From: a virus
Direction: 5' to 3' (one strand)
UHGV virus genome: UHGV-0812067
Length of the DNA: 17,252 bases
In this document: positions 573-13,251 of the stretch, one piece after another
How positions within the stretch are numbered: position 1 is the stretch's first letter
Layout of the letters: every line of letters starts with the position of its first letter
Notes under the pieces: model-generated
What the model saw: only the letters and a program-made list of their open reading frames with translations
Told to the model about the DNA's origin: nothing
Databases searched by the model: none
Position numbers and translations under genes: made by a program

Positions 573-1901
573 ATGACGTGGAAAGACAGGCTTCAGGATG
601 CGTCATTTCGCGGCGTACCGTTTAAGGTTGAAGAAGAAAGTGCGGGAACCGGTCGCCGTGTGGAAACACACGAATATCCGAACCGCGACAAGCCCTATAC
701 CGAAGATCTGGGAAAAGTCACTTTCCGCCCGTCCATCACAGCTTATGTGGTGGGAGATGACTGCTTTGACCAGCGCGATCGCCTGATTGACGCGCTGAAT
801 AAACCCGGTCCCGGCACGCTTGTCCACCCGACATATGGTGAGCTGAAAGTCTGTGTTGACGGGGAAGTTCGGGTCAGCACATCGAAAAGTGAAGGGCGTA
901 TTGTCCGCTTTGACCTGAAGTTTGTCGAAGCGGGAGAACTCTCTTACCCCACATCAGGTGCGGCGACGGCGCAGACGCTGATGTCATCCTGTTCTGCACT
1001 GGATGACTGCATCAGTGACAGCTTCAGCGGTTTCAGTATCGATGGTGTGGCGGATTTCGTGCAGAACGACGTTATCGGTAATGCCAGCATAATGCTGGGG
1101 TATGTTTCTGATGCGATGAAAGTGGTGGATTCTGCCGTATCGGATGCCGCCAGGCTGTTGCAGGGGGATATCTCGGTACTTCTGCCGCCGCCATCGTCAG
1201 GCAAAAATTTCGTTGAGCAGGTGCAGAAAATGTGGCGTACCGGGAAACGCCTTTATGGTAACGCCAGCGACCTGGTCACCATGATCAAAACGCTTTCCGG
1301 TGTCAGCCTCGGCAGCGATCTGCAACCGCGCGGCATCTGGAAAACGGACAGTAAAACCACCGCCACGGCGACGCAGCAGCGTAACGTGGTTGCCAGCACC
1401 CTTCGTACGACCGCAATCAGCGAAGCGGCGTATGCCGTCACCCGATTGCCTGCGCCAACAACTTCCGCGGTGATGCAGAATGCCGCAGTGGGGCAGGCAA
1501 CAACACCTGCGCAGAGCACTGGCTGGCCTTCCGTCACGCATCCGGCACTGAACAATGCACCGGCGGTGAAAAACACGGTTGACCTGCCGACGTGGGAAGA
1601 ACTGACTGACATTCGCGACACACTGAATACGGCAATTGATAAGGAGTTGTCCCGTACAACCAGTGATGCGCTGTTTCTGGCGCTGCGCCGGGTGAAAGCA
1701 GATCTGAATGCGGATATCAACACGCGCCTTGAACAGTCTGCACGGATCATTCAGCGCACACCGGATGAGGTTTTACCCGCGCTGGTGCTGGCGGCGACCT
1801 GGTTTGATAACGCGGCGCGTGACGCGGACATTATCCGGCGTAATGCCATTACGCATCCCGGCTTTGTGCCGGTGATCCCTCTGAAGGTGCCAGTGCAATG
1901 A
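573..1901 (+). CDS. Mu gp43 (N)-like DNA circulation protein / tail-baseplate-associated protein
   Basis: ATG at 573 preceded by GGAG (564-567). N-terminus MTWKDRLQDASFRGVPFKV... is typical of the Mu-type DNA circulation protein N-terminal domain. Stop overlaps the next start (ATGA at 1898-1901). Confidence 0.8.
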   Translation: MTWKDRLQDASFRGVPFKVEEESAGTGRRVETHEYPNRDKPYTEDLGKVTFRPSITAYVVGDDCFDQRDRLIDALNKPGPGTLVHPTYGELKVCVDGEVRVSTSKSEGRIVRFDLKFVEAGELSYPTSGAATAQTLMSSCSALDDCISDSFSGFSIDGVADFVQNDVIGNASIMLGYVSDAMKVVDSAVSDAARLLQGDISVLLPPPSSGKNFVEQVQKMWRTGKRLYGNASDLVTMIKTLSGVSLGSDLQPRGIWKTDSKTTATATQQRNVVASTLRTTAISEAAYAVTRLPAPTTSAVMQNAAVGQATTPAQSTGWPSVTHPALNNAPAVKNTVDLPTWEELTDIRDTLNTAIDKELSRTTSDALFLALRRVKADLNADINTRLEQSARIIQRTPDEVLPALVLAATWFDNAARDADIIRRNAITHPGFVPVIPLKVPVQ

Positions 1902-2977
1902 ACGACAATGTCACGCTACGGATAAATGGCCGGGAGTGGAATGGCTGGACATCGGTGCGCATCGGTGCCGGTATTGAACGGCTGGCGCGGGATTTCAGTG
2001 TGGAGATCACCCGCCAGTGGCCGGGAGATGAGGGTATTACCACGCTTCAGCCGCGCATTAAAAACGGTTCAAAAGTGGAGGTGCTGATTGGTGATGAGCT
2101 GGTGATCACCGGCTGGGTGGAGGCGACGCCCGTTCGTTACGATGCCCGTTCGGTCAGCACCGGTATTGCCGGACGCAGTCTGACCGCTGACTTGATTGAC
2201 TGTGCAGCCGAACCGACACAGTTTAACGGACGATCGCTGGTACAGATTGCGCAGGCGCTTGCTGCGCCTTTCGGCATTGAGGTGGTGAACAACGGTGCGC
2301 CGTCGGGTGTTATTCCTGATGTCCAGCCTGATCACGGTGAAACGGTGATTGAGGTAATCAACAAAATACTCGGTCAGCAGCAGGCACTGGCTTACGACGA
2401 CCCGCACGGCAGGCTGGTGATTGGCGGTATTGGCTCAACGCGGGCACATACTGCGCTGGTACTCGGGGAAAACATCCTTTCCTGCGATACGGAGAAGAGT
2501 ATCCGGGAGCGGTTTTCTGTTTACCAGGTGGCGGGGCAGCGTGCCGGAAACGACGATGATTTCGGTGAGGCCACCACCACCGCGCTGCGGGCCCGCACAG
2601 AGGACGCATTTATTGCCCGTTACCGTCCGATGTATATCAGGCAGACAGGGCAGGCTACGGGGGCAGGCTGTATTGCCCGTGCGGACTTTGAAGCCCGACA
2701 ACGGGCGGCGCGGACGGATGAAACCACCTATGTGGTGCAGGGCTGGCGACAGGGTAACGGTACGCTGTGGCAGCCCAACCAGCGGGTGATTGTCTTTGAT
2801 CCGGTCTGTGGTTTCGACAATACCGAACTGCTTGTTTCGGAAGTCACGTTTACTCAGGACCAGAACGGCACCCTGACGGAAATCCGTGTCGGCCCGCCTG
2901 ATGCTTATCTGCCTGAACCCGAAGCCCCCGGCGCGCGGAAAAAGAAAAAAGCCAGAGTACAGGAGGACCCGTTCTGA
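1898..2977 (+). CDS. Mu gp44 (P)-like baseplate hub protein
   Basis: 359-aa ORF coupled to neighbours by overlapping stop/start. Position and size match the Mu/P2 gpD-type hub in the conserved baseplate gene order. Confidence 0.75.
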   Translation: MNDNVTLRINGREWNGWTSVRIGAGIERLARDFSVEITRQWPGDEGITTLQPRIKNGSKVEVLIGDELVITGWVEATPVRYDARSVSTGIAGRSLTADLIDCAAEPTQFNGRSLVQIAQALAAPFGIEVVNNGAPSGVIPDVQPDHGETVIEVINKILGQQQALAYDDPHGRLVIGGIGSTRAHTALVLGENILSCDTEKSIRERFSVYQVAGQRAGNDDDFGEATTTALRARTEDAFIARYRPMYIRQTGQATGAGCIARADFEARQRAARTDETTYVVQGWRQGNGTLWQPNQRVIVFDPVCGFDNTELLVSEVTFTQDQNGTLTEIRVGPPDAYLPEPEAPGARKKKKARVQEDPF

Positions 2978-3525
2978 TGAAGGCGATTGAAACCATACAG
3001 CGACAACTCCTCGGCCTGATTGGGCGGGCGGTGGTGAAAAGCATCAGTGCCGCCACGAAATGTCAGACCGTGGATGTGTCCCTGATTGCCGGTGAACCCA
3101 AAGCCGGGGTTGAACATCTTGAACCCTACGGTTTTACCGCAAGGGCAAACAGCGGTGCGGAAGCGGTGGTGTTGTTTCCGGATGGCGACCGTTCTCATGC
3201 GGTGGTTGTTACGGTGTCGGACCGGCGCTACCGCCTGAAAGGGCTGCAGACGGGTGAGGTGGCTGTCTATGACGATCAGGGGCAGTCCGTGACGCTGGCC
3301 CGGGAGGGGATCGTGGTGGACGGTGCAGGTAAAACGATCACGTTTCGCAATGCGCCTAAGGCACGTTTTGAAATGGACCTGGAAGTGACCGGACAGGTGA
3401 AAGACCTGTGCGACTCCACCGGCACCACCATGTCAGCGATGCGGCTTGCCTATAACGGGCATCGTCACAGAGAGAACGGTCAGGGCAGTAACACCGACAA
3501 ACCTGATAAAGTGATGGAGGCATGA
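2977..3525 (+). CDS. Mu gp45 / gpV-like baseplate spike protein
   Basis: 182-aa ORF with AGGAGGA upstream (2961-2967) and start overlapping the upstream stop. Sequence and size are typical of phage baseplate assembly protein V. Confidence 0.75.
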   Translation: MKAIETIQRQLLGLIGRAVVKSISAATKCQTVDVSLIAGEPKAGVEHLEPYGFTARANSGAEAVVLFPDGDRSHAVVVTVSDRRYRLKGLQTGEVAVYDDQGQSVTLAREGIVVDGAGKTITFRNAPKARFEMDLEVTGQVKDLCDSTGTTMSAMRLAYNGHRHRENGQGSNTDKPDKVMEA

Positions 3526-3950
3526 TGGAACTGTGGCTGACGGTGAACGGTAAACGCACCTGCGCCAGCGCACAACTGGATCCGCTGACCCGCGCCGTGG
3601 TGATTTCCCTGTTTACCTGGCGGCGGGCGGAGCCTGATGACAACGCCGAAGTCCCGATGGGATGGTGGGGGGATACCTGGCCTGCGGTACAGAATGACCG
3701 TTACGGCTCCCGACTGTGGCTGCTTCAGCGCAGCAAACTGACCAATCAGCTGGTGCAGACGGTAAGGGGGTATATCCGCGAATGCCTGCAATGGATGATT
3801 GATGACGGCGTGGTGTCCCGTATTGATCTGGATATCCGCCGCACCGGGATTAATGAACTGGGTAACAGTATCACTCTCTGGCGTCGTGACGGACCGGTAA
3901 TGATTTCTTTTGATGATCTGTGGAGTGCGATAACGCATGGCGGACAGTGA
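3525..3950 (+). CDS. Mu gp46 / gpW-like baseplate wedge protein
   Basis: ORF track starts at 3522 (ATGATG); the second ATG at 3525 has better spacing from GGAGG (3516-3520). About 140 aa, consistent with the GP46/gpW family by position and size. Confidence 0.7.
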   Translation: MELWLTVNGKRTCASAQLDPLTRAVVISLFTWRRAEPDDNAEVPMGWWGDTWPAVQNDRYGSRLWLLQRSKLTNQLVQTVRGYIRECLQWMIDDGVVSRIDLDIRRTGINELGNSITLWRRDGPVMISFDDLWSAITHGGQ

Positions 3951-5573: not shown

Positions 5574-6536
5574 ATGCATCGTATAGACACGAAAACCGCG
5601 CAGAAGGATAAGTTCGGCGCGGGTAAGAACGGTTTTACCCGTGGTAACCCCCAGACCGGCACACCTGCCACCGATCTGGATGATGACTACTTTGACATGT
5701 TGCAGGAAGAACTTTGTAGCGTGGTGGAGGCCTCCGGTGCCAGCCTGGAGAAAGGGCGGCATGACCAGCTGCTTACCGCACTTCGTGCGCTGCTGTTAAG
5801 CCGCAAGAATCCGTTTGGCGATATCAAATCGGACGGCACGGTGGAAACGGCTCTCGAAAACCTTGGTTTGGGAGATGCCAACGGATATGTGGGCCGAAAG
5901 GTTGCGGAAAAATGGATAACGACATCTGGGACATATACGCCTACACCGGGAACAAAAAAAATCAGGGTAACGATAATTGGCGGAGGCGGCGGCGGGGGCA
6001 GTGGGCAAACAAACTCTGCTGGATACGTATCTGCCGGGTCTGGTGGAGGTGCCGGTGGTGTGGCTCGTAAAACAATTGACGTTACCAGTGTTTCATCAGT
6101 GTCCGTAACCATCGGTTCAGGCGGTAATCCAGGTGTCTTCTCTTCAAATCAGCCTGGTGATGGTGGTACCACAAGTTTTGGCTCCTACATGACAGCTGGC
6201 GGGGGTGGCCGAGGAAATAACTGTGGCTCGGTAGCATTCGGTGTTACTCAGTTAATTGCGAACGGTGGCGGCGGGGTTGGTTCAGGAGGTGATATCAACA
6301 CCATCGGCGGCTCTGGCGGCCCGGCGATAATTCTGGGACAGGGGTACACCAGCGGCGGCGGTGGCAACTCAATAGTAGCTGGAGGTGGACAGCCTATTGC
6401 AACAACGTCATCAATGAGTGGAATTGATGGCTCATATGGTTCTGGTGGGTCAGGCGCTTACATTCTGGCCAGCGGTAGTGAAAAAAATGGCGGACGTGGT
6501 GGTGATGGCGTTTGTATCGTTGAGGAGTATGCATAA
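5574..6536 (+). CDS. tail fibre protein, expressed form in this orientation (constant N-terminus + glycine-rich variable C-terminus)
   Basis: ATG at 5574 with GGAG (5563-5566). N-terminus [40 protein letters not shown]... is the conserved phage tail-fibre N-terminal domain. From about residue 98 the protein is extremely Gly/Ser-rich. The inversion crossover site lies inside the gene at 5851-5876. Confidence 0.85.
5851..5876. repeat. invertase crossover site, left (gix/cix/pix/hix-like, 12-2-12 layout)
   Basis: ctctcgaaaacc tt ggtttgggagat: two half-sites resembling the invertase half-site consensus (..TC..AAACC) around a central TT. The 11 bp ttggtttggga (5863-5873) is the exact reverse complement of 7677-7687. 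Confidence 0.7.
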
Positions 6537-6943
6537 TGAATAACATTTATGCTGTTGTTGAAAATGGCGTGGTGATCAACATCGTCGTCTGGGATGGGAA
6601 ATCGGAATGGCAACCGGTAACTGGGGAGGCTGTTTCTTGTTCTGCTCAGGTTGGTATCGGCTGGTTGTATGATGGAAGTAATTTCACCCAGCCACCAACA
6701 CCCGAGCAGACTCCAGAAGAATTAGCAGCGGCAAACATGGCTAAAGCTGCATCTGAGTATGAACGTGCCAGCGTAGTCATTGTAGCGCTAAATGAGCAGA
6801 TCGAAGACGAGGACTACGCAGGGACTACGGAAGAGGCCGTGAAATCAGAATTGGCCGCATGGACTGACTATCGTAAACAGCTTCGCGCTTACATTAAGGC
6901 CGGGGATGGCAGCCAGACACTACCATCCTTTGTAATGATTTAA
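6536..6943 (+). CDS. tail fibre assembly/chaperone-like protein for the current fibre form
   Basis: ATG overlaps the fibre stop (TAATG at 6534-6538) with GAGGAG upstream (6522-6527). C-terminus ...AWTDYRKQLRAYIKA resembles the Tfa C-terminal W-x-x-YR motif. The N-terminal part is not classic Tfa. Confidence 0.55.
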   Translation: MNNIYAVVENGVVINIVVWDGKSEWQPVTGEAVSCSAQVGIGWLYDGSNFTQPPTPEQTPEELAAANMAKAASEYERASVVIVALNEQIEDEDYAGTTEEAVKSELAAWTDYRKQLRAYIKAGDGSQTLPSFVMI

Positions 6944-7323
6944 ACTGGTCGTGTAGGCCACTCTATATCGGGAGCCGTGCTGGTATCAGTTCGCATCACG
7001 GCAACCCGATAATCTTCCCACGAGGTTAATCTAGCAGCTTCTTCATCAGTCGCTATTCCTGCGGTTACTGCATATTGAAGAGGTGATATTGCAAAAGTTG
7101 CTGCCGCCAGCAGCTCTGCTTTTTTCTGATTTGCAATCGCTACTTGCTGATCATGAGTCAGTGGCGCAGGGTCGCTCAGTTCGGGAAAACCACTTTCGTT
7201 TGCAATAATTACCTTTCCTCCCGCCTGCCCAATCACCAATTCTGACCAGTAGTCGTCGGTAATCTCCACCTGGCTATCACTCATCCGCCCAACCGTAAAT
7301 CCAATCTCTGTGGAATAAAACAT
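6940..7323 (-). CDS. tail fibre assembly protein (Tfa), alternative-orientation copy
   Basis: C-terminus ...ATDEEAARLTSWEDYRVAVMRTDTSTAPDIEWPTRPV matches the conserved Tfa C-terminal motif. Its stop codon overlaps the convergent + strand stop within TTTAAA (6940-6943). Confidence 0.8.
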   Translation of the reverse strand: MFYSTEIGFTVGRMSDSQVEITDDYWSELVIGQAGGKVIIANESGFPELSDPAPLTHDQQVAIANQKKAELLAAATFAISPLQYAVTAGIATDEEAARLTSWEDYRVAVMRTDTSTAPDIEWPTRPV

Positions 7324-7685
7324 TACGCACTCCCCATAGCCATATATTTAAAAGAAAAAGATCCGTTCAGATTTGCCCCTGCGGCATCCTTTCCGTAAAT
7401 TGTCACAACCGAACCTGATTCAGGAATGGCGGCATAACTAACAACGCCTGAGCCAATATCAGTCGGGATAAAAGTAAAACCAGTGCTGGGGTAAGCCAAT
7501 GGAAGAGTAAAGCTCAGTACGCCGTTAACAAAATTTCCAGATCCACTGCCCTCCATTATTCTACGGTTTCCTGCAATCACTATTGAAGTAAATACGTTTG
7601 AAGCGCCAGCGTATGTGAAGTTTGACATGTCTGGAATTTGACCAGTTCCTGTACCCACATCTTTTTTGGCTGCTGTTCCCAAACC
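7323..7685 (-). CDS. silent alternative tail-fibre C-terminal segment (Sv'-like), lacks its own N-terminus in this orientation
   Basis: Minus-strand frame is open from the stop at 7692-7694 through the crossover site to TAA at 7323-7325. It reads ...KVGLGTAAKKDVGTGTGQ..., with GLG encoded by the same ggtttggga as NLGLGD in the + fibre, in the same frame. The TTG 'start' in the ORF track is probably not a real start. Confidence 0.65.
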   Translation of the reverse strand, partial: GLGTAAKKDVGTGTGQIPDMSNFTYAGASNVFTSIVIAGNRRIMEGSGSGNFVNGVLSFTLPLAYPSTGFTFIPTDIGSGVVSYAAIPESGSVVTIYGKDAAGANLNGSFSFKYMAMGSA

Positions 7686-7699
7686 AACCTTTCAAATAT
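7674..7699. repeat. invertase crossover site, right
   Basis: tgttcccaaacc aa cctttcaaatat: the left half-site matches the half-site consensus well, the right half is degenerate. It carries the 11-bp inverted repeat tcccaaaccaa (7677-7687). Confidence 0.65.
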
Positions 7700-7726
7700 T
7701 TTTCTGAATCAGGTGATATTTCGCCT

Positions 7727-7753
7727 CTTCTCCTGTTTTTACAACAGGAGAAG
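7727..7753 (+). promoter_or_regulatory. hairpin sequestering the invertase Shine-Dalgarno
   Basis: cttctcctgt (7727-7736) and acaggagaag (7744-7753) form a perfect 10-bp inverted repeat with loop ttttaca. The right arm contains AGGAG (7746-7750), the RBS for the ATG at 7759. Confidence 0.4.
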
Positions 7754-7758
7754 CACTC

Positions 7759-8322
7759 ATGATTTACGGGTATGTTCGTGTATCAACAAATCATCAGGAT
7801 ACAGAGTTGCAACGTCTTGCACTTGAGTCAGCTGGCTGTGAGCGAATTTATGAAGAATATGCCAGTGGCAGAACAGCTAATCGCCCTGTGTTAAAGGAAT
7901 TAATTACGGTGATGAAAAGTGGAGATGAGTTGATTGTCTGGAAGTTAGATCGGATAGGGAGAAATGTGCTGCATGCGCTATTGATGTTTCAAAATCTGCA
8001 CGAAAAAGGTGTTAATTTTCGGAGTATTACAGATGGCGTAGACCTGAAAACAGCAAGTGGTCGCTATAATTTCCGTAATATTCTTTCTGCTGCGCAGTAT
8101 GAATCTGATTTGAATAGCGAGCGAACTTTAGCTGGTTTGGCTATTGCCAGATCCAAAGGCCGGATTGGTGGGCGTAGACCGAAGTTTAGCGACGAGCAGT
8201 GGCAACAGATGGGAGCGCTCATAGCGGCAGGGAAATCACGGCGTTATGTTGCACGTATCTATAACGTTGGGCTATCAACCCTATATAAACGATTTCCTGT
8301 TACTGGCATTCAAACGAAATAA
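7759..8322 (+). CDS. serine DNA invertase (Gin/Cin/Pin/Hin family resolvase-type recombinase)
   Basis: MIYGYVRVSTNHQDTELQ... contains the catalytic Ser motif (YVRVS), VWKLDRIGR, GRIGGRRPK and a C-terminal HTH ...GLSTLYKRFP. It is 187 aa and sits adjacent to the invertible segment. Confidence 0.9.
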   Translation: MIYGYVRVSTNHQDTELQRLALESAGCERIYEEYASGRTANRPVLKELITVMKSGDELIVWKLDRIGRNVLHALLMFQNLHEKGVNFRSITDGVDLKTASGRYNFRNILSAAQYESDLNSERTLAGLAIARSKGRIGGRRPKFSDEQWQQMGALIAAGKSRRYVARIYNVGLSTLYKRFPVTGIQTK

Positions 8323-8775: not shown

Positions 8776-9873
8776 TCAAGGGGTCTTATTTCTGCTCCTT
8801 TGGAGCTCTTCAAAACGATTATGTAAAGATTTCGGATACAGTTCGGTATATACCTGCCATAGCACGTTTAATGAACGATGCCCTGTAACCTGGGCTACTT
8901 CCTCAATACTAAAACCAGCCTCAAATAAGCGACTTGCCCCTTCTCTACGCAAATCATGGTATCGCAGATCCTTAATACCTAATTTGCTTCTTACCCTCTG
9001 AAATCCCGCAGTAACAGAAGTGCTGTTATATGGAAAAATGAATTCCGATTTTTTGGGCTGTCGTTGGACGATATCCCAGGCTTCCCCAAGCAAGGCTACT
9101 TTCATGTGGTTGCCTTCCTTTTTGCGTGGATCTTTCCTGTCTCTTACGAGTATAGATTTTTGTTCCTGGTCGAGATCTTCCCATCGTAACCGGCATACTT
9201 CTCCGATTCGCATACAGGACCACACAGAAAATTTGAGGATATCAACGAACGGAATTTTTGAGCATTTATGAGTAGATCGTTGTTGAAGGCCTTCAATGAG
9301 CATGTCCAGTTCATCAGATGCTGGTCTACGATTACGACGGTTTGATTTACCAATCAAACCAAGTTTAAGTAGATATGGACGAGCACTTTTCGCCGGGTTT
9401 GATGTGTAATTAATTCCGTATACAGGTTTGGCCGCATCCAGAACACTGCCAAGATAACTAACATCGTGGCTGACTGTTGCTGGACCTGCGCCAGCGTTGT
9501 TTCTTAGCCTGCAATGTTCAATTACGTCATTTTCTGTCAGTTCAGATAGTTTGATCGCGGAGATGTCACTATCCATAAGCAGTTCCAGCACATATCTTTT
9601 AGTACGGCCTGCTTTACCTCCGGCATTTGGGTCATTTAAATATTTGTGTAGTAAGTCACGGACTGTAAGTCCGTCAACTGCATTTGATGATGGAATGCCA
9701 TATAGATCTAATTCCATCACTTTCTGTGTGCCCCATGTTTTGGCATGAGCATGTTTAGGGAATGTTTTGCTTTCCCTGTAAGTGATAACACCTTTTTCTT
9801 TGATAATCACATTACAGCGATAGCGTGGTGTGCCATCGGATTTTAGTCGTTTCTCTATGTTATAGTACGCCAT
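8776..9873 (-). CDS. tyrosine site-specific recombinase (phage integrase)
   Basis: 365 aa. The C-terminal catalytic region has the R...HxxR...Y arrangement (...LRYHDLRREGASRL...VTGHRSLNVLWQVYTELYP). GAGG lies 7 nt upstream of the ATG at 9873. Confidence 0.9.
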   Translation of the reverse strand: MAYYNIEKRLKSDGTPRYRCNVIIKEKGVITYRESKTFPKHAHAKTWGTQKVMELDLYGIPSSNAVDGLTVRDLLHKYLNDPNAGGKAGRTKRYVLELLMDSDISAIKLSELTENDVIEHCRLRNNAGAGPATVSHDVSYLGSVLDAAKPVYGINYTSNPAKSARPYLLKLGLIGKSNRRNRRPASDELDMLIEGLQQRSTHKCSKIPFVDILKFSVWSCMRIGEVCRLRWEDLDQEQKSILVRDRKDPRKKEGNHMKVALLGEAWDIVQRQPKKSEFIFPYNSTSVTAGFQRVRSKLGIKDLRYHDLRREGASRLFEAGFSIEEVAQVTGHRSLNVLWQVYTELYPKSLHNRFEELQRSRNKTP

Positions 9874-9892
9874 TACACGACCTCGTTATTTC

Positions 9893-9929
9893 GGGTTCCC
9901 ATAAAACGTGGGAACCTGTGCGGGAACCT
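9893..9929. repeat. cluster of GGGAACC(T) motifs upstream of the integrase gene (candidate arm-type or regulatory binding sites)
   Basis: gggttccc (9893-9900, inverted), gggaacct (9910-9917) and gggaacct (9922-9929), lying 20-56 bp upstream of the integrase start. Confidence 0.45.
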
Positions 9930-10105
9930 AATGCGAGAAAAATAGCCTGAAATGTTCAAAAATGCACGATAATCATGAAACACAAAAAATTAATCAAACC
10001 AGCGTGATGCCTGAAAAAACTGGTGTTTACTGGAATTCTCGGTTTAGCATTGCTCCTATGCTCGATAGGATGTACCGTTTTTGAAAAACAAGTAGTTATA
10101 CACTT

Positions 10106-10129
10106 TGTGGGAGCCTATTGGGAACCTGT
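10106..10129. repeat. second cluster of GGGA(A/G)CCT motifs
   Basis: gtgggagcct (10107-10116) and ttgggaacctgt (10118-10129); the latter repeats 9909-9919 (tgggaacctgt). It lies about 200 bp from the first cluster across an AT-rich spacer. Confidence 0.45.
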
Positions 10130-10319
10130 TATTCTTAGAAAGCATCATTTGCTCATCACTTCAATTGACCATGGTTAAAGCCAGCTATAAACTTGACAAA
10201 CGAGGTAACTGGTTGCTTAGGCCCAAGTGGGCACACCATAAGAAGCTCATGTTGGTGATGAAGCAACCCATGAAGTATCGAGAATAATTATAAAGTTCAC
10301 TATCTTTGAGGTTTCTTAT

Positions 10320-10892
10320 ATGTTTTGCGAAGAAAAAGTAGCTCAAATGGCTGCATACCTACTTCTTAAGAGAGGTGGGCGCATGGCATATCTGAAATTG
10401 ATGAAGCTGCTCTATCTGTCTAACCGCCAGTCGATTTTGAAGCATGGCAGGATGATCGGCGAAGATAGCCTTTACTCTATGAAATTTGGACCAGTCATGT
10501 CGAATACGCTGAACTTGATTCGCGGTAAGGCTGAAGGCATTGGTGACTACTGGTACAACTTGATAGAGACGAACGGGCATAATGTATCGTTGCGTTCAGA
10601 TCCGAGGGAAATGGATGCAGACGAGGTCTTTGATGAATTGAGTCGTGCAGATATCCGGATTTTAGATGAAATCTATTCTCGGTATGGGCATATGAACCGA
10701 TTTGATCTCGCAAATATGACGCATTTAGAAAGCGTTTGTCCAGAGTGGCACGATCCTGGCAATTCTCGTAAGCCTATAGACCTGAAAGAAATGCTGATCA
10801 GTGAGGGTAAAAGCGAGGATGAGGCTAATCGCATAATTGGCAAAATGGAAGAATCTCAGAAACTTAAGGAATTTTCTTTGCAATTATCATGA
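10320..10892 (+). CDS. Panacea-domain (DUF4065, PanA/SocA/GepA-like) protein, putative antitoxin or sensor component
   Basis: ATG at 10320 with GAGG (10308-10311, 8-nt spacer). Residues about 20-70 (...AYLKLMKLLYLSNRQSILKHGRMIGEDSLYSMKFGPVMSNT...) fit the Panacea signature (KLqKLLYL ... w/y-GPV). Coding DNA is low-GC relative to flanking phage genes. Confidence 0.75.
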   Translation: MFCEEKVAQMAAYLLLKRGGRMAYLKLMKLLYLSNRQSILKHGRMIGEDSLYSMKFGPVMSNTLNLIRGKAEGIGDYWYNLIETNGHNVSLRSDPREMDADEVFDELSRADIRILDEIYSRYGHMNRFDLANMTHLESVCPEWHDPGNSRKPIDLKEMLISEGKSEDEANRIIGKMEESQKLKEFSLQLS

Positions 10893-11308
10893 CGGATTAT
10901 CAGCCATACAGGAAAGGAACTGTGCTTGCCCCAACTGGACCATGCAATCATCTTCATGTGATTTGTAATGATCCTGTTTATTACCCCGTTAACGATTGTT
11001 ATTGTGTTTTAGTTGTTAATATTTCTAGTATCAAGGATGGTGTCCCCCACGATCCGTCTTGCGTCTTGAATTCTGGTGATCATCGCTTTATCAAGCATCC
11101 AAGTTATGTTGTTTACGCTGAAGCTATAATTTGGCGAGTGGATAACATGGTTAGAAAGCAGCGATCGGGTGAGATTTCTGTTCATGATGATATGCCAGAA
11201 GCTACATTCAATAGAATTCTGGACGGTTTTGATATCTCTGATGAAGTTACGCCAAAGAACCTTAAATTTAAAAATAAATATTGCGTATCATCTATTGATG
11301 ATGAGTAA
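10889..11308 (+). CDS. hypothetical 139-aa protein translationally coupled to the Panacea-domain gene, candidate toxin/effector
   Basis: ATGA overlap at 10889-10892 with the upstream stop. Protein MTDYQPYRKGTVLAPTGPCNHLHVICNDPVYYPVNDCYC... has Cys/His-rich motifs and I recognise no family. Lowest GC in the window. Confidence 0.65.
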   Translation: MTDYQPYRKGTVLAPTGPCNHLHVICNDPVYYPVNDCYCVLVVNISSIKDGVPHDPSCVLNSGDHRFIKHPSYVVYAEAIIWRVDNMVRKQRSGEISVHDDMPEATFNRILDGFDISDEVTPKNLKFKNKYCVSSIDDE

Positions 11309-11347
11309 ACAACAGGAATTGTTTCGGTATAACTTCTGGAGTTTTCT

Positions 11348-11521
11348 ATGGAAGATCAAAAAGCAACCAAGCCACAGGTTAAGTTCGACACAATGAAAGC
11401 ATTCGCAGGTATGGGTGCTGCTGTTGAAGTTCTGATGAAGGCTGCTCCTAACGCGTTCACTCACGCTATTGTCTCTGGTAAAGAGCAGCAGGGTAAGCTT
11501 CGTCGTCGCAAGGCAGCATGA
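11348..11521 (+). CDS. small 57-aa protein of unknown function (not in the ORF track, below its length cut-off)
   Basis: Hand translation: MEDQKATKPQVKFDTMKAFAGMGAAVEVLMKAAPNAFTHAIVSGKEQQGKLRRRKAA. GGAG (11338-11341) lies 6 nt before the ATG, and a strong intrinsic terminator follows 22 bp after the stop. Codon choice looks like a well-expressed enterobacterial gene. Confidence 0.5.
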   Translation: MEDQKATKPQVKFDTMKAFAGMGAAVEVLMKAAPNAFTHAIVSGKEQQGKLRRRKAA

Positions 11522-11543
11522 TCATAGCTGGTGCTTTTTGAAA

Positions 11544-11573
11544 GCCCGCCATCTGGCGGGTTTTTCTTTTTTA
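11544..11573 (+). terminator. rho-independent terminator
   Basis: gcccgcc-atct-ggcgggt GC-rich stem followed by tttttctttttt. Confidence 0.75.
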
Positions 11574-11585
11574 TCGGTGCGGAAC

Positions 11586-11858
11586 TCAACTATTTTTCTG
11601 TTTGTTCGTTCTGACCCTTTCCCATTCAATTCTGCCTTCTTCACGCCGCTGGTCTATATACTCAGCAAGATCCTGAATGTTGATACAGCGCTTCGCTTTC
11701 TGTGATGTTCCTACACGGTAAGTCGGGATCGGCAACTGACAGGCATTTGCTTTCGCTTCTGCTGTGTTAGGGCTCATACCGAAATACTTTTGGCATACCG
11801 CTGACAGCTCGATGTTAGGCGTGTTGAACTCAGCCATAAGTAAAAACAAAGTATTCAT
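11586..11858 (-). CDS. PrtN-family (pyocin activator-like) small DNA-binding protein; possible regulator or recombination directionality factor
   Basis: 90 aa, MNTLFLLMAEFNTPNIELSAVCQKYFGMSPNTAEAKANACQLPIPTYRVGTSQKA..., the characteristic N-terminus of PrtN-like proteins common in enterobacterial prophages. GGAG lies 7 nt upstream of the ATG. Confidence 0.7.
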   Translation of the reverse strand: MNTLFLLMAEFNTPNIELSAVCQKYFGMSPNTAEAKANACQLPIPTYRVGTSQKAKRCINIQDLAEYIDQRREEGRIEWERVRTNKQKNS

Positions 11859-11896
11859 AGACGTTCTCCATACAACCTGGCTGCACCCAGGGGAAA

Positions 11897-12469
11897 TTAC
11901 AGGTCGCTGCTGGTGGCCGGAATCAACTTCTGCCAGATCGCGGACACGTATTTTGCTTGATGTCGCGCATCGGCCAGTGCGTTATGTGCAACCCCATCGA
12001 ATGGCATATCTCGCTTTGGATCGAAACCCACCACTCTGCCTAATGTGACGATGGTTCTGACGTCGTGATCGTTCCAAAATTGCCACGGGCAAACCTGGCC
12101 GGTGCGCTCATATGCGCCGCGCAATATAACGTTGTCGAAAGTAGCTCCATTGCCCCAAACTTTTAAATATTTGGGGTTATCAGAATGCCGATTAATGAAA
12201 TGGCTCAGTTCAGATAGGGCAGACGATATCGGCATCGCATCATCAACACAGATTGCTGATCGTGCTTCTGAGCTTTGTCTTAACCACCACAGAATAGTGT
12301 CACCATCCGGCACCGCTCCCTGCTCCATAGCGCTTTCAAGGTTAACGGCGGTGTAAAACTCCTGACCCAGTTCACCGCTTTGCGGATCGAAGAACACGGC
12401 ACCAATGGAGACGATAGGGGCATTCGGTCTTTTGCCCATAGACTCAAGGTCGATCATTAAATTGTTCAC
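11897..12469 (-). CDS. DnaQ-like 3'-5' exonuclease (DEDDh family)
   Basis: Motif I MIDLESMG, central FDN and C-terminal H-x4-D (VAHNALADA). GTG at 12469 has AGGAG 10 nt upstream; an alternative ATG is at 12457. Confidence 0.75.
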   Translation of the reverse strand: MNNLMIDLESMGKRPNAPIVSIGAVFFDPQSGELGQEFYTAVNLESAMEQGAVPDGDTILWWLRQSSEARSAICVDDAMPISSALSELSHFINRHSDNPKYLKVWGNGATFDNVILRGAYERTGQVCPWQFWNDHDVRTIVTLGRVVGFDPKRDMPFDGVAHNALADARHQAKYVSAIWQKLIPATSSDL

Positions 12470-12470
12470 G

Positions 12471-12914
12471 TTAAATATTCTCCTGTTTTGGTGCTGCTTT
12501 AAGCATTGCGGCGCGGCAGGCGTTCCATCCCCTGACTTCAGCGATTGCAGCTACAGCGTCTATGGCATGCATTTTCGACGCCTCTGGCATCGGTTTTTCA
12601 TCCGGCACTACTGGCGCTGACTGCGGGGCGGCCCAGAGCTTATTGACGCCATCCGGCAGATTATTAAAATCAAACGTACTGCCCGGAATCCTGCCAGCCT
12701 GAATCCTGTCGTCTCCGTCAATCTCGATGAAAAATACTGGCTCTGCGTTCCTCGATGCTAGCACCTCATCAATCACATTCAACATATCACCGAGAATGTA
12801 TGCTCTGTTCCCGCCGTTTGAGTACTGGGTATCATGTTGCAGGTGCTCGCGTATCTGGTGCAGGCGATCGACAGATACAGGACCGTTCACCGGGTGGTTT
12901 GTGCTTTTAGTCAT
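12471..12914 (-). CDS. hypothetical early-region protein
   Basis: ORF track extends to 12968 from a non-ATG codon. I prefer the ATG at 12914 (MTKSTNHPV...), which has GGAGG 6 nt upstream and overlaps the upstream stop (ATGACTAA). Confidence 0.55.
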   Translation of the reverse strand: MTKSTNHPVNGPVSVDRLHQIREHLQHDTQYSNGGNRAYILGDMLNVIDEVLASRNAEPVFFIEIDGDDRIQAGRIPGSTFDFNNLPDGVNKLWAAPQSAPVVPDEKPMPEASKMHAIDAVAAIAEVRGWNACRAAMLKAAPKQENI

Positions 12915-13251
12915 TCCATGCCTCCAGCTCGTTCTGGATTTCCTCGTCGACCTCGTCATTTGTGGCATCTTCGTTCAGATAGTCGCGCGCCTCTTTGAGA
13001 TACTGTTCACGGCGTTCGTGGTACCAGGCAGAGAACTCCGGCGACCACCCTCGATTAGCCCCCTGAAAATCTACCATCGCATTATCCTCTGCCATACGCT
13101 CGACCATGCAGTCGGCAGTTGTCAGGGCGCATTCCCGGATGTAACTGCGAAGGTGGTGCTTACGCCAGTACGGACTGTATTTTGAATCGCAGCGGCTTTT
13201 AAATTCGACAGTCCAGCGACGGATGCAACGTGCGTTCAGTGATTTACTCAT
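12907..13251 (-). CDS. hypothetical early-region protein (acidic C-terminus)
   Basis: 114 aa. GGGAG lies 7 nt upstream of the ATG at 13251, which overlaps the upstream stop as ATGA. Confidence 0.55.
   Translation of the reverse strand: MSKSLNARCIRRWTVEFKSRCDSKYSPYWRKHHLRSYIRECALTTADCMVERMAEDNAMVDFQGANRGWSPEFSAWYHERREQYLKEARDYLNEDATNDEVDEEIQNELEAWND

What the first reader, a model, noticed from the sequence alone, without database searches (positions are those of the whole stretch)
9874..10319. 446-bp non-coding region with repeated GGGAACCT motifs in two clusters: candidate attP or integrase regulatory region
Five copies of (T)GGGA(A/G)CC(T), four direct and one inverted, form two clusters about 200 bp apart that flank an AT-rich stretch, immediately upstream of the integrase gene. 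This resembles arm-type integrase binding sites surrounding a core, as in a lambda-type attP. If attP lies here, the window shows the element in its circular or vegetative gene order rather than as an integrated prophage end. The same region must also carry the integrase promoter and the promoter of the Panacea operon.
Basis: inference. Interest (0 to 1): 0.5.

Follow-up and report, generated by a model that had tools for sequence, protein, structure and literature searches.

The report
Phage attP site targeting dusA
This stretch is the attachment site a temperate E. coli phage uses to insert into the host dusA gene, and the repeated GGGAACC motifs are most likely docking ("arm") sites for its integrase; the site is already documented, and the arm sites are a new but unsurprising detail.

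Summary
Five GGGARCC copies lie at 9894-9900(-), 9910-9916, 9922-9928, 10109-10115 and 10120-10126(+); 0 of 2000 shuffles gave even four copies within 240 bp.

Reciprocal prophage junctions in E. coli genomes confine strand exchange to 8 bp, ATGCTCGA (10058-10065). That sequence sits inside a phage-borne copy of the first 35 dusA codons (9962-10084), which rebuilds dusA after insertion. About 900 of 5426 complete E. coli genomes carry the region split at this point. A phage with the same integrase and P arm, 1720a-02, has published Int-dependent attP formation, and its qPCR primers map onto the motifs.

The new part concerns the motifs. Twelve attPs with integrases 34-100% identical share one layout: a tandem pair 11-12 bp apart next to int (in most, also an inverted copy), then the core, then a second tandem pair. 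The motif sequence changes between lineages and tracks the integrase N-terminal domain, a predicted three-strand-plus-helix fold. These are therefore arm-type Int sites, which I did not find described for this family. Binding is inferred, not shown.

It is a classical lambda-type design, so interest is modest.

The parts
8776..9873 (-). Tyrosine integrase (365 aa) of the DusA-associated integrase family, transcribed away from attP
   Evidence: ORF. Pfam PF00589 at residues 189-346, E 1e-20. The AF2 model has an N-terminal three-strand-plus-helix domain, a helical core-binding domain and a catalytic domain. Foldseek matches Tn1549 Int and full-length lambda Int.
9894..9900 (-). P1, inverted arm-type motif (GGGAACC on the - strand), 21 nt from the int start codon
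   Evidence: An inverted copy lies 21-25 nt from the int ATG in YeP1, EKP1, AS1 and BcepIL02, in each case matching that element's own motif; the last two carry a second inverted copy at 1-2 nt. It is degenerate or absent in many other lineages.
9910..9916 (+). P2, arm-type motif GGGAACC, first of the P-arm tandem pair
   Evidence: Invariant in 32 distinct E. coli-type sequences.
9922..9928 (+). P3, arm-type motif GGGAACC, 12 bp from P2
9962..10084 (+). dusA' surrogate 5' end (MHDNHETQKINQTSVMPEKTGVYWNSRFSIAPMLD|RMYRF*). After integration its first 35 codons replace the host dusA N-terminus.
   Evidence: Translations of the phage and K-12 sequences. Annotated as 'tRNA-dihydrouridine' in SKA5 and as a DusA pseudogene in GPEC1352. 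The junction in strain 219 is annotated as an intact dusA.
10054..10070 (.). Candidate core-type Int sites: perfect inverted repeat TCCTAT / ATAGGA around GCTCG
   Evidence: Read directly from the sequence. The equivalent CCCAT-GCTCG-ATGGG is in EKP1, and a near-equivalent is in YeP1. Inference only.
10058..10065 (.). Crossover (overlap) region ATGCTCGA, the only block identical in attP and attB between flanking mismatches
   Evidence: Four-way alignment of attP, attB and both junctions. A seven-base core is published for phage 1720a-02 (PMC6328086).
10086..10098 (+). IHF-like site AAACAAGTAGTTA (one mismatch to WATCARNNNNTTR), between the core and P'1
   Evidence: There are perfect matches at the same offset in YeP1 and EKP1 and a one-mismatch match at the same core-relative offset in SMHB1. 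This is a consensus match only.
10109..10115 (+). P'1, arm-type motif variant GGGAGCC
   Evidence: A P' tandem pair is present in all 12 attPs examined.
10120..10126 (+). P'2, arm-type motif GGGAACC, 11 bp from P'1; the right edge of the attP module
   Evidence: Homology with mEp460 and 1720a-02 stops immediately after this motif.
10165..10193 (+). Promoter-like site TTGACC-17-TAAACT upstream of the Panacea gene; cargo module, not part of attP
   Evidence: a consensus scan that found no more sites than the shuffles did.
11586..11858 (-). PrtN-family gene, homologue of RdfN, the recombination directionality factor of dusA-specific elements
   Evidence: Pfam PF11112, E 3e-24. The RdfN function was shown for a Vibrio element (PMC8409611). 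The gene lies directly beside attP in EKP1 and YeP1.

Best explanation
Positions 9874-10127 are the attP of a temperate SfV/lambdoid-mosaic E. coli phage. Its tyrosine integrase belongs to the DusA-associated integrase family.

Shown: recombination with the host takes place within ATGCTCGA (10058-10065), about 100 bp into dusA. The phage carries its own copy of the dusA start (9962-10084), so the gene is rebuilt at the int-side junction.

Inferred: the integrase is heterobivalent, like lambda Int. Its catalytic and core-binding domains act on the inverted repeat TCCTAT/ATAGGA around the crossover. Its N-terminal three-strand-plus-helix domain (residues 1-58) binds the GGGARCC motifs. These form a tandem pair plus one inverted copy on the P arm (9894-9928, 129 bp from the crossover) and a tandem pair on the P' arm (10109-10126, 43 bp from it). 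A host bending protein, probably IHF at 10086-10098, folds the arms back so that Int bridges arm and core in an intasome. RdfN (11586-11858) reverses the reaction.

The P-arm sites lie 21-55 nt upstream of the int start codon, in the 88-bp gap between int and dusA'. Int occupancy there probably also feeds back on int transcription and on expression of the rebuilt dusA.
For: Location of attP:
- Reciprocal junctions fix the crossover.
- 905 of 5426 complete E. coli genomes hold the region; only one holds it unsplit, and the listed hits break at this point. In 740 genomes the int side continues straight into dusA.
- Phage 1720a-02 (Int >=99% identical; P arm differing at one base) shows Int-dependent attP regeneration and a 7-base core. 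Its attP primers map to 9893-9912 and 10113-10126.

Arm sites:
- The clustering is non-random.
- All 12 intact or reconstructed attPs have tandem pairs on both arms (the Rhizobium phage's P-arm copies are 13 bp apart and in opposite orientation); they are the window, YeP1, EKP1, C5a, AS1, RHph_Y3_56_1, BcepIL02, Kp4884-1, M16-3, SMHB1, 1720a-02 and Vibrio PE001. In YeP1 and EKP1 the positions agree with the window to within 2 nt (21/37/49/185/236/247 from the int ATG), but the motifs differ (GGGGTGC, GGTGTAC).
- 48 of 78 species-representative loci (Int 53-99% identical) show an exact tandem pair of a G-rich motif, 11-12 bp apart, just upstream of int, and most of the rest a pair with one or two mismatches, in several motif classes.
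- The motif class tracks the Int N-domain. With identity of the rest of the protein held at 0.60-0.75, N-domain identity is 0.78 for same-motif pairs and 0.56 for different-motif pairs. Class-specific residues lie in strands 2-3. Two classes can occur in one genome or genus.
- Module boundaries in mEp460 and 1720a-02 fall right after P'2.
- 0 of 21 motif positions vary among 32 E. coli-type variants, against 15 of 67 in the rest of the spacer.
- A mini-element carrying only attP and int integrates at dusA (PMC8409611).
Against: - There are no binding data.
- The covariation is confounded by shared ancestry.
- RdfN also diverges between the window, YeP1 and EKP1, so covariation alone cannot assign the motif to Int rather than to RdfN.
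- P1 is missing in many relatives.
- No convincing sigma-70 promoter for int was found, so the autoregulation step is conjecture.
- The IHF site is a one-mismatch consensus match.
Confidence: 0.85

Rival explanations
1. The repeats are binding sites for the directionality factor RdfN (PrtN family) or another accessory DNA-bending protein, not for the integrase.
For: RDFs bind direct repeats in att arms (general knowledge). rdfN sits across attP from int and is inherited with it. RdfN also differs between the window, YeP1 and EKP1, at 52-53% identity, so it too could co-vary with the motif.
Against: The same motif occurs on both arms, as expected for Int bridging, whereas RDF sites are usually confined to one arm. 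The motif tracks N-domain residues of Int when overall divergence is controlled. An attP-int mini-element integrates without RdfN. Only 64% of dusA islands have a prtN homologue, whereas nearly all relatives have the tandem pair.
Confidence: 0.07
2. The repeats are operators of a transcription factor that controls only the divergent int/dusA' and Panacea promoters, and they play no part in recombination.
For: Cluster 1 lies in the 88-bp gap between int and dusA'. Cluster 2 lies 40-70 bp upstream of a promoter-like site at 10165-10193.
Against: Cluster 2 is retained in mEp460 and 1720a-02, where the downstream gene and its promoter are replaced. The spacing to the crossover is conserved across phages with unrelated cargo. 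No candidate regulator co-occurs. Regulation by Int itself is compatible with the main explanation.
Confidence: 0.05
3. The P1/P2 inverted repeat is an RNA or DNA hairpin in the int leader, and the other copies are chance or duplication remnants.
For: P1 and P2 form an 8-bp perfect inverted repeat with a 7-nt loop. In Escherichia sp. MOD1-EC7003 both halves changed together to GGGGACC while the Int N-domain stayed identical.
Against: The predicted leader fold is no better than shuffles, z -0.41. Relatives such as Pluralibacter and Phytobacter have non-complementary P1 and P2. Many lineages lack P1 but keep the tandem pairs. Chance is excluded.
Confidence: 0.03

Closest known systems
attP of phage 1720a-02 (Phi-stx2dact) and other E. 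coli dusA-integrating lambdoid phages (mEp460, cdtI, phiSTEC1575-Stx2k); DusA-associated integrase family (Farrugia 2015, PMC4482086; Balasubramanian 2019, PMC6328086; Durand 2021, PMC8409611)
   Same: The integrase is at least 98.6% identical in the four of these that keep a full-length int (cdtI retains only a fragment). The P arm, the dusA' surrogate 5' end and the crossover are nearly identical to 1720a-02. It inserts about 100 bp into dusA and carries a PrtN/RdfN-type directionality factor.
   Different: The phage backbone differs: SfV/Mu-like tail genes, and a Panacea cargo module inserted between attP and rdfN. None of the three papers mentions arm-type sites.
Bacteriophage lambda attP (core C-O-C', arm sites P1, P2, P'1-3, IHF, Xis and Fis sites) with heterobivalent Int
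   Same: Short repeats unrelated to the core lie on both sides of it, with tandem copies one helical turn apart on the P' arm. An IHF-like site lies between the core and P'. The Int has an N-terminal beta-sheet-plus-helix domain, a linker, a core-binding domain and a catalytic domain.
   Different: attP lies upstream of int, not downstream. There are five sites in a 3+2 layout. The motif is G-rich, GGGARCC. The target is inside a protein-coding gene, and a replacement 5' end is supplied. The RDF is PrtN-like, not Xis. There is no sequence similarity in the N-domain.
P4-type and genomic-island integrases with attP immediately upstream of int and Int autoregulation (recalled from the literature, not tested here)
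   Same: int is transcribed away from attP, with Int-site repeats between the int start codon and the core.
   Different: Those integrases carry a DUF4102-type arm domain and target tRNA genes. Autoregulation is only conjectured here.

Membership tests
DusA-associated integrase (DAI) recombination module | A tyrosine integrase gene lies directly beside the 5' end of dusA in the integrated state | tested here: met
   In 740 E. coli genomes the int-side segment continues into an annotated dusA. Strain 219 has int at 1577-2674 (-) and dusA at 2763-3800 (+). 51 of the 78 species-representative loci analysed show an APM(L/M)D-coding core about 160-195 nt upstream of int; most of the other 27 (largely Xenorhabdus, Serratia, Providencia, Raoultella) lack it and probably sit outside dusA, like Kp4884-1.
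DusA-associated integrase (DAI) recombination module | The element supplies a surrogate dusA 5' end that restores the reading frame | tested here: met
   The phage ORF at 9962-10084 matches the first 35 codons of K-12 DusA and diverges right after the crossover.
DusA-associated integrase (DAI) recombination module | Semi-conserved direct repeats (21-bp att consensus) flank the element at a conserved dusA position | tested here: met
   attL, attR, attP and attB share ATGCTCGA with partly conserved flanks. The published logo itself was not available as text. The C. rodentium attB quoted in PMC6328086 contains the same core.
DusA-associated integrase (DAI) recombination module | A PrtN-family RDF (RdfN) lies on the far side of attP | tested here: met
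   Positions 11586-11858 (-), PF11112, E 3e-24. The gene is 1.4 kb from attP because cargo is inserted between them; it is adjacent in YeP1 and EKP1. Function is not tested.
Lambda-type heterobivalent integrase with a complex attP | Repeated arm-type sites on both sides of the core, unrelated in sequence to the core sites | tested here: met
Lambda-type heterobivalent integrase with a complex attP | A separate N-terminal arm-binding domain (three-stranded sheet plus helix) | tested here: inconclusive
Lambda-type heterobivalent integrase with a complex attP | Integrase protein physically binds the arm motifs | not testable with these tools
   Only indirect support: covariation of the motif with the N-domain and invariance of the motifs in the population.
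Lambda-type heterobivalent integrase with a complex attP | Accessory bending-protein (IHF) site between core and arm | tested here: inconclusive
   Consensus matches lie at the same offset in four attPs, two perfect and two with one mismatch. None was found in C5a, M16-3 or Vibrio PE001, and in AS1, RHph_Y3_56_1 and BcepIL02 the only matches lie at other positions.

The most novel reading that the evidence does not exclude
The DusA-associated integrase family shares one fixed attP scaffold: a tandem pair plus an inverted copy beside int, a dusA mimic, the core, an IHF site and a second tandem pair. On this scaffold the 7-8-bp arm motif and a few residues in strands 2-3 of the N-terminal domain co-evolve as an exchangeable recognition code: KY[IV]YREN with GGGGTGC, KH[LI]HRET with GGTGTAC, [VI]IT[YF]RES with GGGARCC, and KR[IV][FY]NES with GGTGTCC. 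This would keep co-resident elements that target the same dusA site from cross-reacting. Because the P-arm sites sit in the int/dusA' divergent control region, Int occupancy would also couple int autoregulation to expression of the rebuilt host tRNA-modification gene.
Probability: 0.35. Interest if true: 0.5.

Novelty: new member of a known kind. Interest (0 to 1): 0.3.

Why it matters
The finding fixes the true ends of a prophage family present in roughly one in six complete E. coli genomes, including Stx-converting phages. It also shows that the small 'DusA pseudogene' annotated beside these integrases is a functional part of attP. The arm-site map gives a minimal attP (about 9890-10127, roughly 240 bp) that could be used for integration vectors. 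The lineage-specific pairs of motif and N-domain offer a natural series for studying how arm-binding domains read DNA, and whether different arm specificities insulate elements that compete for the same chromosomal site. None of this changes the current picture of site-specific recombination.

Tried and rejected
- tRNA and Rfam searches of the window and of 9800-10400 found nothing.
- RNA folding of the int leader was not better than shuffles.
- The sigma-70 scan gave one weak + strand site and none for int. I looked by eye for an int promoter. The only pattern conserved in the three enteric attPs is AAAATA-N16-AATGCA (read on the int strand, TGCATT-N16-TATTTT); K-12 has the same two hexamers 15 nt apart upstream of dusA. 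It may therefore be dusA promoter mimicry rather than Pint, and I left it as conjecture.
- The IMG/VR scan returned only near-identical E. coli loci. It was useless for diversity but served the population-variation count.
- A search for the far (P') junction within 10 kb in 78 genome loci found only chance hits, because the islands are larger than the flank.
- Fold searches with the isolated N-domain gave no specific match to solved integrase arm domains.
- Comparing RdfN proteins did not separate the Int and RdfN hypotheses.
- Small ORFs inside the region (10023-10178, 10105-10287, 10185-10346) were treated as spurious and not tested further. Two of them run across the attP/cargo module boundary at 10127; the third lies wholly within the cargo module.

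Full report
**Observation.** The intergenic region 9874-10319 lies between a leftward tyrosine integrase gene (8776-9873; Pfam PF00589) and a rightward Panacea-domain gene (10320-10892; PF13274). It contains GGGARCC at 9894-9900 (inverted), 9910-9916, 9922-9928, 10109-10115 and 10120-10126. The whole window has nine such heptamers against 3.4 expected. In 2000 dinucleotide-preserving shuffles none placed four or more within 240 bp. No tRNA gene and no Rfam family is present.

**What the region is.** A megablast of 9700-10500 against complete E. coli genomes hit 905 of 5426 genomes, but only one place was contiguous. Elsewhere the match breaks into an int-side part (window 9700-10065, annotated 'integrase | dusA') and a Panacea-side part (window 9959-10500, annotated 'tRNA-dihydrouridine synthase | Panacea'). 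I aligned four sequences: the window, K-12 dusA, the int-side junction of strain 219 and the Panacea-side junction of strain CAU16175. This gives clean reciprocal recombinants:
- attP reads ..GCATTGCTCCT-ATGCTCGA-TAGGATG..
- attB reads ..GCGTTGCACCA-ATGCTCGA-CTGGACG..
- Each junction switches parent inside the shared ATGCTCGA, window 10058-10065.

The sequence to the left of the crossover is a phage-borne imitation of the dusA start. ORF 9962-10084 encodes MHDNHETQKINQTSVMPEKTGVYWNSRFSIAPMLD|RMYRF*, against K-12 MHGNSEMQKINQTSAMPEKTDVHWSGRFSVAPMLD|WTDRH. Integration therefore rebuilds an intact dusA with a phage-derived N-terminus, and it is annotated as intact in strain 219.

This is the signature of the DusA-associated integrases described by Farrugia et al. 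2015 (PMC4482086). Balasubramanian et al. 2019 (PMC6328086) studied phage 1720a-02 (Int at least 99% identical; P arm differing at one base). That work showed insertion 100 bp into dusA, a seven-base core and Int-dependent regeneration of attP. Their attP qPCR primers map to window 9893-9912 and 10113-10126, that is, onto the motif clusters themselves.

The window as a whole resembles phage SKA5 (73% coverage, 97% identity), with SfV/Mu-like tail genes to the left and lambdoid early genes to the right.

**Extent of attP.** mEp460 and 1720a-02 share the window's sequence from int through the second right-hand motif and diverge immediately after GGGAACC(T) at 10126/10127. Positions 10128-10319 travel with the Panacea gene. 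They contain the only sigma-70-like match in the region, TTGACC-17-TAAACT at 10165-10193. attP is therefore about 9874-10127.

**Are the repeats arm-type integrase sites?** I collected relatives whose attP is intact or can be rejoined from prophage-ordered records:
- Yersinia phage YeP1 (Int 69% identical)
- 'Elizabethkingia' phage EKP1 (67%)
- Pseudoalteromonas C5a (54%)
- Marinobacter AS1, Rhizobium RHph_Y3_56_1 and Burkholderia BcepIL02 (34-36%)
- Klebsiella Kp4884-1, Shewanella M16-3, Salinivibrio SMHB1, a Vibrio non-tailed element, and 1720a-02

All of them show a tandem direct pair next to int and a second pair 11 bp apart beyond the core (in the Rhizobium phage the int-side copies are 13 bp apart and in opposite orientation); P-arm spacing elsewhere is 11-12 bp. 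Most also have an inverted copy nearest int. In YeP1 and EKP1 the positions counted from the int start codon (about 22, 38, 50, core 186, 236, 247) agree with the window (21, 37, 49, 185, 236, 247) to within two bases. The motifs, however, are GGGGTGC and GGTGTAC instead of GGGAACC.

Across 78 species-representative genomes (Int 53-99% identical), 48 have an exact tandem pair of a G-rich motif at 11-12-bp spacing just upstream of int, and most of the others a pair with one or two mismatches. The motif classes seen are GGGARCC, GGGGTGC, GGTGTAC, GGTGTCC, GGGATAC, GGGGTAC and GGGGCAC.

The motif class follows the integrase N-terminal domain:
- With identity of residues 70-350 restricted to 0.60-0.75, same-motif pairs share 78% identity in residues 1-58 and different-motif pairs share 56%.
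- Class-specific residues sit in the second and third strands, for example KY[IV]YREN with GGGGTGC and KH[LI]HRET with GGTGTAC.
- Different classes occur within one MAG (L098 vs L114), one species (Xenorhabdus hominickii, L113 vs L125) and one genus (Rosenbergiella, L101 vs L102). The motif therefore goes with the element, not the host.

Among 32 distinct E. coli-type variants, none of the 21 motif positions varies. In the rest of the int-dusA' spacer 15 of 67 positions vary, and the P1-P2 loop is the most variable part. My own hypergeometric estimate for this contrast is about 0.01.

**The protein.** AlphaFold2 with 57 homologues gives mean pLDDT 85. The model has strands 2-10, 16-26 and 29-38 and a helix at 41-58 (pLDDT about 90), a flexible linker, a helical core-binding domain and the catalytic domain. 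Foldseek places the whole model with Tn1549 Int, lambda Int and Cre. Full-length lambda Int chains align over 354-377 columns, against 289-296 for the 75-356 construct.

**Accessory elements.** An IHF-consensus match lies at the same offset between the core and P'1 in four attPs: the window (10086-10098, one mismatch), YeP1 and EKP1 (both perfect) and SMHB1 (one mismatch). The crossover is bracketed by a perfect inverted repeat, TCCTAT/ATAGGA (10054-10070). These are candidate core-type sites, read from the sequence. The PrtN-family gene at 11586-11858 is the homologue of RdfN. Durand et al. 2021 showed RdfN to be the excision factor of dusA-specific elements, and showed that a mini-element with only attP and int integrates at dusA (PMC8409611).

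**Mechanism, and what is shown.**
- Shown: the location of attP, the crossover interval, the dusA replacement, the conserved site architecture and its covariation with the N-domain.
- Inferred: Int binds the motifs through its N-domain and bridges arms to core with the help of IHF.
- Conjecture: the P-arm sites lie 21-55 nt upstream of the int start codon, in the gap shared with dusA'. Int occupancy there may regulate int and the rebuilt dusA.

**Rivals.**
- RdfN or another accessory protein as the binder cannot be excluded by covariation alone, because RdfN also diverges. The two-arm distribution, the link to the Int N-domain and RdfN-independent integration argue against it.
- A purely transcriptional operator is unlikely, because cluster 2 is kept where the downstream gene is replaced.
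- An RNA hairpin from P1/P2 has no thermodynamic support (z -0.41) and is not conserved.

**Novelty.** The attP and its dusA targeting are already published. Arm-type sites are not mentioned in the three key papers, and searches combining dusA with arm-site terms found nothing relevant. The arm-site map is therefore a new annotation of a classical kind.

Noticed in passing
L002 (E. coli GPEC1352 chromosome) 11077-13193: This is the only complete E. coli genome with the attP region contiguous. It lies between a lambda-like tail module (gpJ, Lom, tail fibre) and the Panacea/early-gene module. The likely explanation is two different prophages in tandem at dusA, joined by a hybrid attP-like site, or else an assembly artefact.
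   Followed up: no
window 10165-10200 and 10289-10300: In the Panacea upstream region there is a near-palindrome, TTGACCATGGTTAA, over the -35-like hexamer. There is also a 12-mer repeated 103 bp apart (TATAAACTTGAC / TATAAAGTTCAC). These may be operators of the Panacea (SocA-like antitoxin) operon. The 139-aa ORF at 10889-11308 has no Pfam hit and could be the partner toxin.
   Followed up: no
L009 74-103 (C5a attP, counted from the int ATG); also L145, L153, L152 and L159: Marine relatives carry a second, different repeat between the P-arm pair and the dusA mimic. It has a 10-bp period, for example GGCAATTCAA three times. This is where lambda places its Xis sites, so these may be RdfN or other accessory-protein sites.
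   Followed up: no
L093 (Escherichia sp. MOD1-EC7003), 21-55 nt upstream of int: P1 and P2 are both GGGGACC instead of GGGAACC, while P3 and the Int N-domain are unchanged. The two halves of the inverted repeat have changed in concert.
   Followed up: partly
L173 (Klebsiella phage Kp4884-1) and about 25 genome loci without an APMLD-coding core: Family members with 52-66% identical integrases keep the tandem arm pairs but lack a dusA-like core, so they probably integrate at other targets.
   Followed up: no
L176 (Vibrio phage 10N.286.52.F6_PE001): A 15-kb non-tailed element classified in Vinavirales, with a PM2-like capsid gene, uses the same integrase family. It has the dusA core and ACGTACT arm pairs, so the module moves between very different virus types.
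   Followed up: no
window 6536-8322: A DNA invertase gene (7759-8322) lies next to oppositely oriented tail-fibre and assembly genes, as annotated in SKA5. This looks like an invertible host-range segment just upstream of DinI and int.
   Followed up: no
L003 3640-3672 (K-12, upstream of dusA) and window 9937-9964: The phage mimic extends upstream of the dusA start codon. AAAATA is followed by AATGCA 16 nt later in the three enteric phages and 15 nt later in K-12. This suggests the phage also copies the dusA promoter or leader.
   Followed up: partly
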